Under the pieces are notes generated by a model that was given only the letters and a program-made list of their open reading frames with translations, ran no database searches and was not told the origin of the DNA. DNA of 40,932 nt from a virus. Position 1 is the first letter of the stretch. Each line of letters begins with the position of its first letter. A program made the position numbers and the translations under genes. Shown piece after piece: positions 6,989-19,223 of this stretch. The stretch spans positions 1-40,932 of the IMG/VR virus record IMGVR_UViG_3300029587_000019; one strand, written 5' to 3'.

Positions 6989-7615
6989 GACTTCCTCCTG
7001 TTTTGCTACCAGCCCCCACCCCTTGGCCTTACATAGCAGACTTTACCCGCCCCGCAGTCTCTACCATTACCCCACGCATAAGCGCAAGCCTTCGATTTTG
7101 AGGGGCATACACGCTGTCTCTTCCAGCCGTCAAGATTGGTTTGCATAACCTCCGTGCTCAAAGACACGAGCCGCTATCTGGCACGGCATTGCAGTCCTGC
7201 CCTGCTTTAGCGCTTCAGGGAAAGTCCCCGTCACTCGCTGTGGTCTCCCCTTACGGGGCACCTATGCCGCATATCTCCGCAGTGAGCCGGTCGGCGCTCC
7301 GGCATCTCCAACAATGCGAGTATTTGCGGTCTCGCCTCCGGGCGGCAGATTGCCTTTCTGCCCTCCACTGCGGTACTGCCGTCTAAAACTGCTGCCACCG
7401 TGCGCAATCACAGTGACCTGCTGGAACTTCGGCAGCGTAGTTTGTCCAAATGTCCCCTCTGGGACACATCGTTGAGAGGTGCGAGGGGTCCTATACCCAA
7501 CCGGAATTGCACCGGGGCATCAAGGGCAAGTACCAGTTGCCGGAGATGAGCTGCTTTTACAGGCCGCAGCTTATATATTCTTGGAGCGAGGACGCATCAC
7601 CCGAAACGCTCCCCG
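6989..7615 (-). ncRNA. Candidate large structured non-coding RNA. The class is unverified; the context resembles ROOL/GOLLD. Strand is inferred.
   Basis: No ORF of 60 aa or more on the gene-bearing strand. Many GC-rich hairpins, e.g. GGAGCG...CGCTCC, TGTCCC-agag-GGGACA, CCCC-gtaa-GGGG, GCTGCC...GGCAGC, CCGTGC...GCACGG. Directly 3' of a tRNA-like element. Confidence 0.45.
7001..7026 (-). repeat. 26-nt direct repeat, copy 1 (minus strand CCAAGGGGTGGGGGCTGGTAGCAAAA)
   Basis: Read directly. Followed by CAGGAGG-ATG of ORF 6988. Confidence 0.8.
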
Positions 7616-7618
7616 CCA

Positions 7619-7690
7619 TGGTGCAGACGGCAGGATTTGAACCTGCGCATACCTCCTGGTGCGGTGCTCTGCCTACTGAGCTACGTCTGC
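7619..7690 (-). tRNA. tRNA-like element or pseudo-tRNA with encoded CCA. Acceptor, D and T arms are canonical, but there is no canonical anticodon arm.
   Basis: GCAGACG-TA-GCTC-AGTAGGCA-GAGC-A-[CCGCACCAGGAGGTATGC]-GCAGG-TTCAAAT-CCTGC-CGTCTGC-A-CCA. The central 18 nt contain no U33-type loop and are 3-4 nt too short. Confidence 0.55.
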
Positions 7691-17339: not shown

Positions 17340-17407
17340 TGCCTTTTCCTTTCCCCTGTGCTAAAATAGCCACAGGATACATATCTGAGCCTAAGATTTG
17401 TTCCGCC

Positions 17408-17448
17408 GCCCTGCCCGGTCTGCAACACCGGACGGGGCATTTTTTATT
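17408..17448. terminator. GC-rich hairpin with a T-run on the plus strand. Its loop carries TGTTGCAGA when read on the minus strand.
   Basis: gccctgcccgg-tctgcaaca-ccggacggggc-attttttatt. The stem is imperfect. Confidence 0.4.
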
Positions 17449-17605
17449 CCACACGCCAGATTTCGTAGATGGTAACGCCATGCGACGCCATCTCTGCCGC
17501 AAATTTTACGGCCTGCGCCTCGGAAGTGAAACCATCGCTTGCGCCGCGCTGTCCCACGATACCGTTGTCATGGCAAATTGCCCAGTTCTCATTCATGTGC
17601 TTCAC
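17444..17605 (-). CDS. Hypothetical small protein (53 aa), uncertain
   Basis: GTG start 8 nt after AGGAGG. Sequence ...MNENWAICHDNGIVGQRGASDGF... Confidence 0.35.
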   Translation of the reverse strand: MKHMNENWAICHDNGIVGQRGASDGFTSEAQAVKFAAEMASHGVTIYEIWRVE

Positions 17606-17609
17606 CTTT

Positions 17610-18028
17610 TTATCCTCCTGTTATTAAACATTTCCTCTGCTATCCATGGCAGATCTGTGACGCCGCACTGCCGAGCTTATCTATTCCATTCCTTTGCTGC
17701 TCTTAGCGATACGTAACTTCGCTATTCCCTCGCCATTCTCATCTAAGCATTTCCTACGCTTTTCTTTGCGTTTCTCTACGGTTCTCTGCGGTTCTCTTCC
17801 TTGGCTTTGCGGTGAGTTGCTCCTCTGTGCGTTGCCTTTGCATAGCAAATCACTGCATTTCCGTTGCTACGTCGAGCATTGCTGTGCTACGCCATTCCGC
17901 TGCGATTCTGTACCGTTCTGAACCATTCCATTGCATTGCCTTGCGCATCTGTGCATTGCCTTTGCTATGTTGTTCTCCGCTTTGCCGTTGCATTGCTGAA
18001 CGATTCGCGGCCCTGCCATTCCGTCGCG
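17610..18028. repeat. About 420-bp ORF-poor, strand-asymmetric degenerate repeat array
   Basis: Plus-strand words: CCATTCC at 17686, 17893, 17923, 18016; CATTTCC at 17629, 17748, 17856; GCATTGC at 17876, 17933, 17953, 17990. 10-bp tandem GTTCTCTNCG x3 at 17771-17800. tgcattgcctt occurs twice. Confidence 0.85.
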
Positions 18029-18622
18029 TTACTGGATCTCATCCCAGACAAATCGGCCTTTTCCACTGTTGCGCCACTGACCGATGCCTGAGAACCGGCC
18101 ATAATCCAGCCATTCCCGGACGGCTTTCTCGTGATCGTCGCAGAGGCAGATCACCCGGAACTCGCAAGTAGCGCCTGCGGGGATTTCCTCACTCATGGCA
18201 AGGCTGACGCGCTCGCCCTGCGCCGTCTGCGCTCTCAGGGGGCGCTGGCACTCACCAACGGGGCCGTCAAACTCCAGCGGGATCACGCGAGGCTCCGGGA
18301 AGATCAGCTTATCGATTTCCTTCTTGTAGGCCTTGATCTTCTCACTGGCCGTGCCCTTGACCTTGCGGAGACCGCCGCAGGTGTCCTTGAAAAAGCCCTT
18401 GATCTGGTAGTCATACAGGAACGGGGTGCCGTCCTCCATCCGGGGGAACACCGTCATGGCCTTTTCCGCCACGGCATCAGCTCCCAGCGCGGCAACTTCG
18501 TCCTCAACGCTTAAAGCATCCGGGGATTTGGAACCGATAAACTCCCGATATACGTCTGGGTTTGCAGGGCTTGTGCCAAGAATGGGTTCCGTAAATGTGA
18601 TCCGTACCTTAATTTCCTTCAT
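18029..18622 (-). CDS. Unassigned early protein (197 aa) with a glycine-rich C-terminal motif GIGQWRNSGKGRF
   Basis: First gene after the Cro-like repressor. No family recognised. Confidence 0.7.
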   Translation of the reverse strand: MKEIKVRITFTEPILGTSPANPDVYREFIGSKSPDALSVEDEVAALGADAVAEKAMTVFPRMEDGTPFLYDYQIKGFFKDTCGGLRKVKGTASEKIKAYKKEIDKLIFPEPRVIPLEFDGPVGECQRPLRAQTAQGERVSLAMSEEIPAGATCEFRVICLCDDHEKAVREWLDYGRFSGIGQWRNSGKGRFVWDEIQ

Positions 18623-18640: not shown

Positions 18641-18865
18641 TTACTCACTGCTGGATTCGAACAGTTCGTCCACCGTCACGCCGTACATCCTCGCCAGCTT
18701 CTTGTGGTACTTCCGTGCCGGTCGCCAGTCGCCCAGCTCCCAATGCGTCACACAGGACAAGTCCACATTCAGTTTCTTTGCTACCTGTGCACGGGTCAGG
18801 TTGGAACGTTCTCGAAGTTCCTTCAATGCCAAGTCATGTGCCCTCCTTTCGGTGTGAGAATTCAT
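18641..18865 (-). CDS. Cro-like XRE-family HTH repressor
   Basis: 74 aa with LKELRERSNLTRAQVAKKLNVDLSCVTHWELG. Divergent from the CI-like gene. Confidence 0.8.
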   Translation of the reverse strand: MNSHTERRAHDLALKELRERSNLTRAQVAKKLNVDLSCVTHWELGDWRPARKYHKKLARMYGVTVDELFESSSE

Positions 18866-18899: not shown

Positions 18900-19016
18900 G
18901 GGAGTTAAACTACGCGCCAAATGGCGTACTCTGTTGCAGAGGGGTATTCCATTTAGCAAACGAGTTCGCTTCCAACCGCCCCGAAGTTTGTTGCAGAGAC
19001 TTCGGGGCGGTTTTTT
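18900..19016 (+). ncRNA. Putative ~115-nt small RNA, antisense to the leader of the Cro-like operon
   Basis: Bounded by the promoter at 18865-18893 and the intrinsic terminator at 18976-19016. No ORF. Confidence 0.4.
18976..19016 (+). terminator. Rho-independent terminator
   Basis: ccgccccgaag-tttgttgcagaga-cttcggggcgg-tttttt. The stem is 11 bp and perfect. Confidence 0.8.
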
Positions 19017-19069: not shown

Positions 19070-19098
19070 TTGACACGACCCGGAAAGCGTATTACAAT
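19070..19098 (+). promoter_or_regulatory. Promoter for the CI-like operon (TTGACA-17-TACAAT)
   Basis: Hexamers and spacer counted by hand. Confidence 0.65.
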
Positions 19099-19172: not shown

Positions 19173-19223
19173 GGTATATGATACCTCACAAAATTCGGTT
19201 TGTCAATTAGCTTAACCGAATTT
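19173..19223 (-). promoter_or_regulatory. Leftward promoter (TTGACA-17-TATCAT on the minus strand, 19206..19178) with two overlapping palindromic operator candidates
   Basis: GGTATatgATACC (19173-19185) covers the -10. AAATTCGGTT/AACCGAATTT (19191-19200 / 19214-19223) brackets the -35. Confidence 0.6.

What the first reader, a model, noticed from the sequence alone, without database searches (positions are those of the whole stretch)
17610..18028. About 420-bp strand-asymmetric, degenerate short-repeat array just downstream of the first early gene
The segment between the 197-aa early gene (stop at 18029) and the next small ORF (17605) is pyrimidine-rich and A-poor on the plus strand. In one 60-nt sample I counted about 65% C+T and 15% A. 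It is built from a small vocabulary of words. On the minus strand these read GGAAUGG (exact copies at 17686, 17893, 17923 and 18016, plus one variant at 17733), GGAAAUG (17629, 17748, 17856) and GCAAUGC (17876, 17933, 17953, 17990). There is also a 10-bp tandem GTTCTCTNCG x3 (17771-17800) and an 11-mer duplicated 20 bp apart (17932/17952). Three consecutive 57-nt segments show weak periodicity. Every frame is fairly open, but only because of the composition. The only RBS is at the far 3' end (17618-17623), where it serves ORF 17444..17605. Possible roles are: (a) a GGA-rich RNA acting as a protein sponge or decoy, analogous in design to GGA-repeat sponges such as CsrB; (b) a DNA-binding array (iterons or a centromere-like site); (c) a substrate for the adjacent unassigned protein, whose C-terminus (GIGQWRNSGKGRF) resembles glycine-rich loops of RNA-binding RAMP-type proteins. 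All three are speculation. The repeat architecture itself is directly visible.
Basis: partly seen in the sequence, partly recalled or inferred. Interest (0 to 1): 0.7.

Follow-up and report, generated by a model that had tools for sequence, protein, structure and literature searches.

The report
Phage guide-RNA array beside RAMP gene
The 420-bp "word array" is a run of about 80 five-base repeats that sits directly behind a small Cas7-like (RAMP) gene in a gut phage, and it matches the recently described VIPR systems, in which such repeat RNAs guide the protein to the DNA of competing phages.

Summary
On the minus strand, 17629-18028 is about 78 tandem pentanucleotide units with consensus M-A-N-N-G. 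G is present in 97% of units, and the two bases before it carry almost no information. A conserved hexamer, CAANGG, interrupts the run every 5-7 units and gives cassettes of 26, 31 or 36 nt. The periodicity is far beyond chance (z = 11). There is no 3-base coding signal and no significant RNA fold.

The adjacent 197-aa protein is a single-domain RAMP. Its predicted structure matches Csm3 and type VII Cas7. Its profile aligns over the full length with the Vipr protein of phage SUSP1, and the two share the G-x-G-(D/Q)-W-R...G-R-F loop.

Nearly every relative examined, down to 55% protein identity (about 130 loci), has the same kind of array directly after the stop codon. The arrays are 110-1030 nt long, and cassettes are gained, lost and shuffled much faster than the protein changes.

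This fits the VIPR systems described in two 2026 bioRxiv preprints: a Vipr RAMP plus pentanucleotide-repeat vrRNAs. It uses the alternative single-G consensus and has an uninterrupted array. I found no targets, so the DNA-silencing function is inferred from the SUSP1 work. The locus is a new member of a very recently described kind.

The parts
19178..19206 (-). Promoter-like site (TTGACA-17-TATCAT, 11 of 12 matches). It is the likely start of the early transcript that runs through the cro-like gene, the RAMP gene and the array.
   Evidence: Consensus scan. A divergent promoter-like site on the plus strand lies at 19070-19098, in front of the cI-like gene. Function is inferred, not shown.
18641..18865 (-). 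74-aa Cro/C1-type helix-turn-helix gene immediately upstream of the RAMP gene. It could be the phage cro or a DNA-binding accessory (vap-like) gene.
   Evidence: Pfam HTH_31 (E 6.7e-11) and HTH_3 (E 3.6e-9). A homologous HTH ORF is the upstream neighbour in only 47 of 164 related loci.
18029..18622 (-). 197-aa single-domain RAMP protein (Vipr-like, Cas7-like fold) with the C-terminal G-loop GIGQWRNSGKGRF.
   Evidence: - No Pfam, PHROG, NCBIfam or PADLOC hit.
- Family profile against PDB sequences: type VII Cas7 at E 3.4e-6 and Csm4 at E 1.2e-3.
- AlphaFold2 model with pLDDT 88.5 and pTM 0.82.
- Foldseek top hits are Csm3, type VII Cas7 and Cas7-11, E 1e-7 to 1e-5.
- hhalign against SUSP1 Vipr: probability 88.7%, E 2.6e-6, 170 aligned columns.
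17629..18028 (-). Array of about 78 units (62 pentamers, 13 hexamers; 76 end in G). Consensus M-A-N-N-G, punctuated by CAANGG. Proposed to be an uninterrupted vrRNA (guide RNA) array transcribed together with the RAMP gene.
   Evidence: The array starts at the first base after the TAA stop and ends 4 nt... before the TTTAATAACAGGAGG ribosome-binding region of the next ORF.
17903..17933 (-). Example cassette of 31 nt: CAAUGG AAUGG UUCAG AACGG UACAG AAUCG. It is shared by 14 of the 59 non-redundant arrays.
   Evidence: An exact-pattern scan of IMG/VR found this cassette only inside arrays downstream of RAMP genes.
17759..17804 (-). Longest cassette without an internal hexamer (46 nt, 9 units).
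17444..17605 (-). 53-aa ORF with an AGGAGG ribosome-binding site. It is an optional passenger gene between the array and the hairpin.
   Evidence: It is present in a subset of relatives (for example L009 and L013). In most relatives the array runs directly to the hairpin.
17407..17439 (-). G+C-rich hairpin that bounds the locus on its downstream side in many relatives. On the plus strand it is followed by a T-run.
   Evidence: Its role is not established: it could be a terminator for the opposite strand or a 3' cap of the array transcript.

Best explanation
The segment is the guide-RNA array of a VIPR-type system (Viral Interference Programmable Repeat).

**Proposed mechanism.** The phage early promoter transcribes the cro-like gene, the 197-aa RAMP gene (a Vipr homologue) and the array as one RNA. 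Vipr protomers bind the array one per pentanucleotide unit. Each holds the conserved G, and less strictly the following C/A, in the G-loop/thumb pocket and exposes the variable bases. The CAANGG hexamers divide the RNA into cassettes of 5-7 units. These are probably the individual guides, or one-turn segments of the protein filament. The exposed variable dinucleotides read double-stranded DNA of a competing phage or prophage in a gapped register and silence it.

**Shown here:**
- the repeat grammar;
- its statistical significance;
- the RAMP fold;
- the similarity to SUSP1 Vipr;
- the strict gene-array linkage;
- the cassette-wise hypervariability.

**Inferred from the SUSP1 and P. fulva experiments in the preprints:**
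- transcription and processing of the array;
- formation of a protein-RNA filament;
- DNA targeting;
- inter-phage function.
For: **Protein**
- RAMP G-loop and Cas7/Csm3 fold.
- A BFVD relative at 65% identity is already named 'Cas system-associated RAMP superfamily protein'.
- Full-length profile matches to SUSP1 Vipr: probability 88.7%, E 2.6e-6. Against the SUSP1-family profile: probability 75%, E 2.4e-5.
- SUSP1's G-loop residues W178 and R179, which contact the vrRNA, are conserved here as W183 and R184. W183 is invariant and R184 nearly invariant.

**RNA**
- Pentanucleotide tandem repeat with z = 11.
- Across 2,439 unique units: G 97%, position 1 C/A 84%, positions 3-4 carry 0.05 and 0.03 bits. 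This is the conserved/variable alternation that defines vrRNAs.
- The consensus falls within the YNNNG/NNNNG alternatives the preprint lists.
- Substitutions between cassette variants avoid the G (2.7%) and concentrate at positions 2-4 (8-15%).
- The RNA is unstructured.

**Linkage**
- All 59 non-redundant close loci carry an array on the gene's strand starting at the stop codon.
- So do most of 80 genome loci at 55-93% identity.
- No comparable sequence occurs elsewhere within 3 kb either side of the RAMP gene in the related loci, and no other 400-nt bin of the window approaches the array's word density.

**Dynamics**
- 356 cassette clusters occur in 59 arrays, and 228 are seen only once.
- Phages with 92-94% identical protein share only 8% of cassettes.

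**Context**
- The locus is in a phage, has no CRISPR array, and sits next to the cI/cro switch.
- This is the setting the preprint describes for VIPR.
Against: - The canonical GGY motif is absent. Only one G per unit is conserved, and GG occurs only at the hexamers.
- SUSP1's G1-binding residues H17 and D177 are T17 and Q182 here.
- No conserved structured 3' tail follows each guide, unlike SUSP1.
- The profile-profile probability to the SUSP1 family is only 75-89%.
- No universal accessory (vap) gene is present.
- No natural target was found under NN readings at positions 3-4, 2-3 or 1-2 with 0-3 skipped bases. The searches covered 2.3 Mb (both strands) of related phage and prophage sequence, the window itself, and six exact-pattern scans of IMG/VR.
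- I could not check whether this exact family is among the preprint's 2,664 Vipr sequences, because no supplementary files are held.
- Both VIPR papers are unreviewed preprints from one laboratory.
Confidence: 0.85

Rival explanations
1. The RAMP protein and repeat RNA do form a ribonucleoprotein, but its job is not to silence the DNA of competing phages. It could target RNA, regulate the phage's own genes in time, or act as a decoy that soaks up host type III CRISPR components.
For: - The fold is closest to the RNA-targeting Csm3, type VII Cas7 and Cas7-11.
- No DNA target was found.
- The cassettes have only 5-7 units, shorter than the 9-16 units of the characterised vrRNAs.
- The residues that read G1 in SUSP1 differ here.
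Against: - No self-match above permuted controls was found in the 41-kb window.
- Extreme cassette turnover between near-identical phages fits an arms race with external targets better than self-regulation does.
- The only experimental data for the protein family show binding to double-stranded DNA.
Confidence: 0.08
2. The array is a GGA-rich sponge or decoy RNA for a host RNA-binding protein such as CsrA.
For: - GGA occurs many times on the transcribed strand.
- The RNA is purine-rich and single-stranded.
Against: - GGA is a by-product of the CAANGG hexamer followed by an A-rich unit.
- The invariant feature is one G every 5 nt.
- No hairpins are available to present GGA (fold z = -0.72).
- A sponge for a conserved host protein would not need hypervariable cassettes.
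- The array is strictly linked to a RAMP gene.
Confidence: 0.03
3. The segment works as DNA: iterons, a replication origin, or a centromere-like site bound by a protein.
For: - It is a non-coding repeat region in the early/replication part of a temperate phage.
- It has strong strand asymmetry.
Against: - The repeat unit is 5 nt with only one fixed base, too little for a DNA-binding site.
- Cassettes differ almost completely between phages with 92-94% identical flanking genes.
- The orientation is always that of the RAMP gene, and the array begins at its stop codon.
- There is no AT-rich unwinding element; G+C is 48-55% across the segment.
Confidence: 0.02
4. The segment is functionless repeat DNA produced by slippage and recombination, or a decayed coding region.
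For: Array length is highly variable, from 110 to 1030 nt.
Against: - The periodic G and the hexamer C/GG are under purifying selection: 0-2.7% variable against 8-15% at neighbouring positions.
- Cassette lengths are quantised at 26, 31 and 36 nt.
- The same grammar holds across relatives down to 55% protein identity and in several bacterial phyla.
- There is no period-3 signal.
Confidence: 0.02

Closest known systems
VIPR systems: Vipr protein plus vrRNA. Described in bioRxiv 10.64898/2026.04.26.720920 and 10.64898/2026.04.26.720927, with Escherichia phage SUSP1 and a Pseudomonas fulva prophage as the studied examples.
   Same: - A phage-encoded RAMP of about 20 kDa with a single RRM, a thumb and a G-loop.
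- A shared G-x-G-(D/Q)-W-R...G-R-F motif.
- An adjacent non-coding tandem pentanucleotide repeat with fixed G-containing positions alternating with variable bases.
- No cas genes and no CRISPR array.
- Hypervariable guides between close relatives.
- A location in a temperate phage near the lysis-lysogeny switch.
- The preprint mentions alternative consensus units (NNNGG, YNNNG, NNNNG) and 'staggered' arrays in which guides abut.
   Different: - The unit is M-A-N-N-G with a single conserved G, not YNNGG.
- There is no leader or structured 3' tail between guides. In SUSP1 each guide of about 100 nt has a tail.
- A conserved CAANGG hexamer punctuates the array every 5-7 units, giving 26/31/36-nt cassettes, against 9-16 units per SUSP1 guide.
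- Arrays reach 200 units.
- H17 and D177 of SUSP1 are T17 and Q182 here.
- No vap gene is consistently linked.
- Targets are unknown.
Cas7 backbone subunits of class 1 CRISPR effectors: Csm3 of type III-A, Cas7 of type VII, and the Cas7 domains of Cas7-11.
   Same: - Fold: Foldseek E about 1e-7, TM 0.5-0.58.
- The C-terminal glycine-rich loop: profile hit at E 3.4e-6 to type VII Cas7.
- The expected one-protomer-per-repeat-unit binding along an RNA, with a periodically flipped base.
   Different: - Sequence identity is only 10-15%.
- There is no Cas10, Cas5, Cas6, Cas11, Cas1 or Cas2 partner.
- There is no repeat-spacer CRISPR array.
- The period is 5 nt rather than 6 nt.
- The periodic base is encoded in the RNA sequence, whereas crRNA spacers are arbitrary.
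CRISPR arrays and phage-borne mini-arrays or solitary repeat units.
   Same: - A short conserved element (CAANGG) alternates with variable segments of quantised length.
- Cassettes are gained, lost and shuffled between close relatives, as spacers are.
   Different: - The 'repeat' is 6 nt, not 24-40 nt, and has no hairpin.
- The 'spacers' themselves carry a 5-nt G period.
- Turnover shows no polarity towards one end.
- No adaptation genes are present.
CsrB/RsmZ-type GGA-repeat sponge RNAs.
   Same: A non-coding RNA that carries many GGA triplets.
   Different: - No stem-loops present the GGA.
- The period and grammar differ.
- The array is linked to a RAMP gene, not to the Csr regulon.

Membership tests
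VIPR system | A small (about 20 kDa) stand-alone RAMP with one RRM core, a thumb hairpin and a glycine-rich loop. | tested here: met
   - 197 aa.
- AlphaFold2 pLDDT 88.5. The model shows a beta-alpha-beta-beta-alpha-beta core, a beta-hairpin at residues 123-147 and a loop at 175-190.
- Foldseek hits to Csm3 and type VII Cas7 at E about 1e-7.
- Profile hit to the Cas7/Csm4 G-loop.
VIPR system | Sequence homology to an experimentally characterised Vipr (SUSP1 gp at NC_028808 28474..29061). | tested here: inconclusive
   - hhalign of the family profile against SUSP1 Vipr: probability 88.7%, E 2.6e-6, 170 columns.
- Against a 31-sequence SUSP1-family profile: probability 75%, E 2.4e-5, 179 columns.
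- The match is full-length and collinear but below the usual 95% level.
- tblastn does not link the two proteins directly.
VIPR system | G-loop residues that grip the conserved guanine(s). In SUSP1 these are D177, W178 and R179, plus H17 and the thumb residue R138. | tested here: inconclusive
   - W183 is invariant and R184 nearly invariant. They align with W178 and R179.
- D177 aligns with Q182, and H17 aligns with T17.
- Invariant arginines R127 and R130 lie in the thumb, but their equivalence to R138 is not resolved by the alignment.
VIPR system | An adjacent non-coding tandem pentanucleotide repeat of at least 4 units, in which conserved G-containing positions alternate with hypervariable bases. 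| tested here: met
   - 78 units in the window.
- Segmentation z = 11 against shuffles.
- G in 97% of units, with 0.03-0.05 bits at the two preceding positions.
- Position-dependent substitution.
- Present in 59 of 59 close loci and in most distant loci.
VIPR system | The canonical YNNGG (GGY/NN) unit. | tested here: not met
   The unit is M-A-N-N-G, and GG occurs only in the CAANGG hexamers. The preprint allows 'a related consensus' (NNNGG, YNNNG, NNNNG). This therefore excludes the type II pattern, not the VIPR class.
VIPR system | Each vrRNA ends in a conserved, structured 3' tail (a pseudoknot in the SUSP1 clade). | tested here: not met
   The array is continuous and no conserved inter-guide sequence is present. 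The fold z-score is -0.72. A single hairpin follows the whole locus. The preprint's 'staggered arrays' also lack spacers between guides, but the figure is not available to compare.
VIPR system | Encoded by a phage or provirus, outside any CRISPR-cas locus. | tested here: met
   - The locus sits between a cI/cro-type switch and recombination genes.
- At least 595 relatives are found in IMG/VR viral contigs.
- No long direct repeats occur around the locus.
- Rfam finds only a tRNA and a skipping-rope RNA in the window.
VIPR system | A linked accessory gene (vap). | tested here: inconclusive
   An HTH gene lies directly upstream in the window and in 47 of 164 loci. The other loci have unrelated neighbours or none.
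VIPR system | The variable dinucleotides match natural DNA targets with one skipped base per unit. | tested here: inconclusive
   There was no excess over permuted guides for reading positions 3-4, 2-3 or 1-2 with 0-3 skipped bases. The searches covered 2.3 Mb (both strands) of related sequence and the window itself. Exact IMG/VR scans gave only chance hits that did not extend into flanking units. Mismatch-tolerant searches of large gut phage collections could not be run.
VIPR system | vrRNAs are expressed and co-purify with Vipr, and the complex binds or represses target DNA. | not testable with these tools
   This needs small-RNA sequencing, a pull-down and reporter assays.
CRISPR-Cas class 1 (type III / type VII) | A CRISPR repeat-spacer array plus the other effector subunits (Cas10 or Cas14, Cas5, Cas11) and usually Cas6 and Cas1-Cas2. 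| tested here: not met
   No 24-40-nt repeats are present. The neighbouring ORFs are HTH regulators and small phage proteins.
CsrB/RsmZ-type sponge RNA | Multiple GGA motifs displayed in the loops of short hairpins. | tested here: not met
   The minimum free energy is not different from shuffles (z = -0.72). GGA is a by-product of the hexamer junction.
Iteron or centromere DNA repeats | Several near-identical copies of a 15-25-bp protein-binding repeat, conserved among relatives that share the binding protein. | tested here: not met
   The longest internal repeats are 10-11 bp. Cassette content is only 8% shared at 92-94% identity of the neighbouring protein.

The most novel reading that the evidence does not exclude
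The CAANGG-punctuated cassettes of 26, 31 or 36 nt (5-7 units, about one helical turn of a Vipr filament) are a distinct array grammar. In this reading each cassette is a self-contained mini-guide with operator-like specificity of 10-14 bp, released at the GG junction without tails or ribozymes, possibly by the RAMP itself. A single phage then carries 10-30 or more such guides as a fast-evolving library expressed from its early lytic promoter. This would be a compact, CRISPR-array-like way of storing many guides, and it may not be covered by the preprints' seven types.
Probability: 0.3. Interest if true: 0.7.

Novelty: new member of a known kind. Interest (0 to 1): 0.45.

Why it matters
VIPR was first described only in 2026 preprints, and experiments exist for two Proteobacterial examples. 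The family found here is very large and comes mainly from phages of human and animal gut Clostridia.
- At least 8,000 protein clusters at 90% identity.
- 1,779 representatives at 50% identity.
- At least 595 IMG/VR loci.

It shows a cleaner and longer form of the repeat code: uninterrupted arrays of up to about 200 units, a single anchoring G, and a regular hexamer punctuation. This gives three things:
- An independent sequence-level confirmation that the link between RAMP genes and pentanucleotide arrays is general.
- Natural variation that separates the essential positions of the unit from the free ones.
- A concrete set of several hundred cassettes whose targets, once found, would map phage-phage conflicts in the gut.

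If the short cassettes are separate guides, this is also the most compact natural multi-guide format yet seen for this class.

Tried and rejected
**Target searches (all negative)**
- I tested reading positions 3-4, 2-3, 1-2, 2-4, 1-4 and 1-5 of each unit, with 0-3 skipped bases.
- Guides were taken as 9-unit windows or as whole cassettes.
- The database was the fetched loci with arrays masked (1.1 Mb, then 2.3 Mb counting both strands), and separately the 41-kb window.
- There was never an excess over order-permuted guides.
- An apparent signal for period-5 collinear matches came entirely from array remnants that I had failed to mask.

**IMG/VR exact scans**
- An 18-base pattern gave 0 hits.
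- A 14-base cassette pattern gave more than 120 scattered chance hits.
- A 16-base pattern gave 39 hits whose flanks matched at chance level.
- Two patterns using positions 2-3 gave 2 and 9 hits in contigs from samples other than the human-gut compendium sample (3300045988) that yielded most relatives.
- A 24-base collinear cassette pattern hit only arrays downstream of RAMP genes.

**Other ideas tested and dropped**
- Global Fourier analysis at period 5 shows nothing, because the phase slips by +1 at each hexamer. Autocorrelation and segmentation were needed instead.
- An early impression that the gene-proximal end of the array turns over faster was not borne out: sharing is 0.27 for both the first three and the last three cassettes.
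- I asked whether each hexamer belongs to the cassette before it or after it. The test did not discriminate (48/61 against 48/57).
- Rfam finds no known RNA family in the segment at gathering thresholds.
- Pfam, PHROGs, NCBIfam and PADLOC have no model for the protein.
- A coding region is rejected: no period-3 signal, and cassette lengths do not preserve frame.
Full report
**1. The observation**

The segment lies on the transcribed (minus) strand between the stop codon of a 197-aa gene (18029..18622) and the ribosome-binding site of a 53-aa ORF (17444..17605).

Composition and words:
- Plus-strand composition is T 36.5%, C 30.3%, G 19.6%, A 13.6%.
- AT skew is -0.47, the extreme of the 14-22 kb region profiled.
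- Their density is unique in the window: 22 vocabulary words in the bin 17600-17999, against 4 or fewer in any other 400-nt bin.
- The 10-bp tandem, the 11-mer pair and the 57-nt periodicity (lag-57 identity 0.46) are all present.

**2. What the words really are**

The identity autocorrelation is 0.46-0.47 at lag 5, against a baseline of about 0.23. Further peaks fall at 10/11, 15/16 and 20/21, then at 26, 31 and 36, then at 57, 62 and 67. This is a 5-nt repeat whose phase slips by +1 at intervals.

Segmentation:
- Splitting the sequence into units that end in G gives 83 units over 425 nt. Of these, 79 end in G; 65 are pentamers and 14 are hexamers.
- The segmentation score is 11 standard deviations above dinucleotide-preserving shuffles. 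Anchoring on A, C or T gives z = 3.2, 2.7 and 0.9.
- G-G co-occurrence has z = 8.6 at lag 5, -4.0 at lag 4 and 7.9 at lag 26.

Other properties:
- There is no period-3 signal (0.29, against 6.14 in the neighbouring gene).
- The RNA does not fold better than shuffles (z = -0.72).

The 10-bp tandem is two pentamers repeated. The 57-nt period is two cassettes (26 + 31).

**3. The grammar, from related loci**

I collected three GenBank gut-phage records, 80 IMG/VR loci and 80 loci from bacterial genomes and MAGs.

Arrays in relatives:
- All 59 non-redundant close loci have an array that starts at the first base after the stop codon, on the gene's strand. Arrays are 110-595 nt (21-116 units), and at least 93% of units end in G.
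- Most relatives at 55-93% protein identity also have one, up to 1030 nt and 201 units.
- No similar sequence occurs elsewhere within 3 kb either side.

Unit consensus, over 2,439 unique pentamers:

| Position | Main bases | Information |
|---|---|---|
| 1 | C 50%, A 34% | 0.43 bits |
| 2 | A 51% | 0.27 bits |
| 3 | no preference | 0.05 bits |
| 4 | no preference | 0.03 bits |
| 5 | G 97% | 1.79 bits |

Hexamers:
- The hexamers are a separate, strongly conserved element, C-A-A-N-G-G (C 92%, A 63%, A 77%, G 92%, G 100%).
- They recur every 5, 6 or 7 units (172, 181 and 147 cases).
- The array is therefore built from cassettes of 26, 31 or 36 nt (108, 136 and 109 unique cassettes).
- The junction logo G|CAANGG|MA holds in distant relatives too.

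**4. Evolutionary behaviour**

- The 59 arrays contain 356 cassette clusters, 228 of them seen only once.
- Closely related phages differ by gain, loss and reshuffling of whole cassettes.
- Phages whose RAMP protein is at least 96% identical to the window's share 45% of cassettes. Those at 92-94% share 8%.
- Neither end of the array is favoured.
- Among variants of the same cassette, the periodic G varies in 2.7% of columns and the hexamer C/G/G in 0-1.4%. Positions 1-4 vary in 6.2, 8.1, 8.9 and 14.9%.

This is purifying selection with a 5-nt period, not a coding pattern.

**5. The adjacent protein**

- It has no hit in Pfam, PHROGs, NCBIfam or PADLOC.
- The family is very large: 8,000 or more clusters at 90% identity and 1,779 representatives at 50% identity.
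- A 46-sequence profile hits the type VII Cas7 (E 3.4e-6) and Csm4 (E 1.2e-3) through the C-terminal loop.
- The AlphaFold2 model (pLDDT 88.5, pTM 0.82) matches Csm3, type VII Cas7 and Cas7-11 (E 1e-7 to 1e-5, TM 0.5-0.58).
- In BFVD the best hit is a 65%-identical gut-virome protein already labelled 'Cas system-associated RAMP superfamily protein'. Weaker hits are archaeal virus proteins.

**6. Comparison with what is known**

A literature search found two 2026 bioRxiv preprints that describe VIPR systems.

From the discovery preprint:
- The systems are phage-encoded. They pair a stand-alone RAMP of about 20 kDa (Vipr) with vrRNAs.
- vrRNAs are 9-16 YNNGG pentanucleotide repeats, with GGY conserved and NN hypervariable, followed by a structured tail.
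- Alternative consensus units NNNGG, YNNNG and NNNNG are mentioned.
- 'Staggered' arrays with abutting guides are mentioned.
- Seven types are defined.
- Competing phages are repressed by binding to double-stranded DNA, in which each NN pairs and every third target base is skipped.

From the structural preprint:
- One protomer binds per repeat.
- G1 is read by H17 and D177. G2 is read by the thumb residue R138 and by W178. Y3 is held in a pocket that includes R179.

I located the SUSP1 locus (NC_028808 27500-29510) and compared it with this one.
- Our family profile aligns with SUSP1 Vipr over its full length: probability 88.7%, E 2.6e-6.
- Against a 31-sequence SUSP1-family profile: probability 75%, E 2.4e-5.
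- The motif G-V-G-D-W-R-P-R-F-G-R-F aligns with G-I-G-Q-W-R-N-S-G-K-G-R-F.
- W and R are conserved. D177 and H17, the G1 readers, are Q182 and T17 here.
- That fits the loss of one of the two conserved guanines in our unit.
- Run on SUSP1, my segmentation recovers its pentamers, interrupted by leaders and tails. Our array has neither.

**7. Mechanism proposed**

*Shown:* the grammar, its significance, the RAMP fold, the gene-array linkage and the cassette turnover.

*Inferred:*
- The early promoter-like site at 19206..19178 (TTGACA-17-TATCAT) drives one transcript through the cro-like gene, the RAMP gene and the array.
- Protomers bind one per unit, anchoring the periodic G and exposing the variable bases.
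- The CAANGG hexamers mark guide boundaries, or add one nucleotide per filament turn.
- The exposed bases read the DNA of a competing phage in a gapped register.

Which two bases are read is open. Positions 3-4 have the least information. Alternatively, the conserved G may correspond to SUSP1's G2. The G1 readers are replaced here, and position 4 drifts fastest. In that case positions 2-3 would be the guide.

**8. Targets**

I tested both registers and others, with 0-3 skipped bases. The guides were 9-unit windows or whole cassettes. The databases were 2.3 Mb (both strands) of related phage and prophage sequence, and the window itself.
- There was no excess over permuted guides.
- Apparent collinear hits were unmasked arrays.
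- Six exact-pattern scans of IMG/VR gave nothing, or chance hits that did not extend, or only arrays.
- The absence of self-targets agrees with the preprint.
- The absence of external targets is uninformative. Exact matching is too strict, and 10-14 specified bases per cassette are too few for such scans.

**9. Host and context**

- The closest genomic copies (92-93% identity) are in Ruminococcaceae and Dysosmobacter MAGs.
- The family is spread through gut Clostridia. Copies also occur in Eggerthella and other Coriobacteriia, and in some bins labelled Bacteroidota that may be mis-binned.
- The upstream HTH gene is shared by only 47 of 164 loci. The RAMP gene and its array therefore move as a two-part module.

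**10. Verdict**

The locus is best filed as a VIPR-type system with the single-G unit and an uninterrupted, hexamer-punctuated array.

Because the class was described in 2026, this is a new member of a known kind. I could not check whether the hexamer punctuation and the short cassettes are already covered by the preprints' 'staggered arrays', because the figures and supplements are not held.

Noticed in passing
L008 3001-4234 and L028 (IMG/VR relatives of the window): A 207-aa ORF with weak NUMOD1 and I-TevI DNA-binding-domain hits is inserted into the 3' end of the RAMP gene, just after the G-loop codons. The displaced C-terminal codons (KGRFTWEEIQ, then stop) are repeated at the end of the inserted ORF, and the array follows. 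This looks like a homing endonuclease that targets the conserved G-loop coding sequence. The 214-215-aa variants in the homologue list are probably the same event.
   Followed up: partly
window 7278-7372 (-) and 7622-7690 (-): A skipping-rope RNA (Rfam RF02924, 45.3 bits against a gathering score of 36.7) lies about 250 nt from a tRNA gene. Both are on the minus strand of this phage.
   Followed up: no
window 18974-19012 and 17407-17439: Two G+C-rich hairpins, each followed by a T-run on the plus strand, bracket the block of cro-like gene, RAMP gene, array and ORF53. All genes in that block are on the minus strand. Their loops share GTTGCAGA in opposite orientations. They could be terminators for antisense transcription, bidirectional terminators, or protein-binding sites.
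   Followed up: partly
window 17444-17605 (-): A 53-aa ORF with a strong AGGAGG ribosome-binding site sits between the array and the hairpin. It is found in only a subset of relatives (for example L009 and L013). In most relatives the array runs straight to the hairpin. It has no family hit.
   Followed up: partly
L346 and L351 (IMG/VR contig 3300045988_041897, 66.9 kb): One viral contig carries two RAMP-plus-array loci, 97.5% and 93.4% identical to the window protein. Both contain the same 31-nt cassette. This could be two co-resident systems or a chimeric assembly.
   Followed up: no
L142 and L150 (genome loci, 57-59% identical protein): Some distant relatives have U/G-rich units (for example GGTGT TAGGT GTTGT AGGGT TTAGT) instead of the A-rich units of the window. 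These are closer in look to the SUSP1 vrRNAs, which suggests that unit composition differs between sub-families.
   Followed up: no
L094, L099, L117, L119, L131, L140, L147, L153: A minority of relatives show no array directly downstream of the RAMP gene. I did not check whether their arrays lie upstream or elsewhere, or are absent.
   Followed up: no
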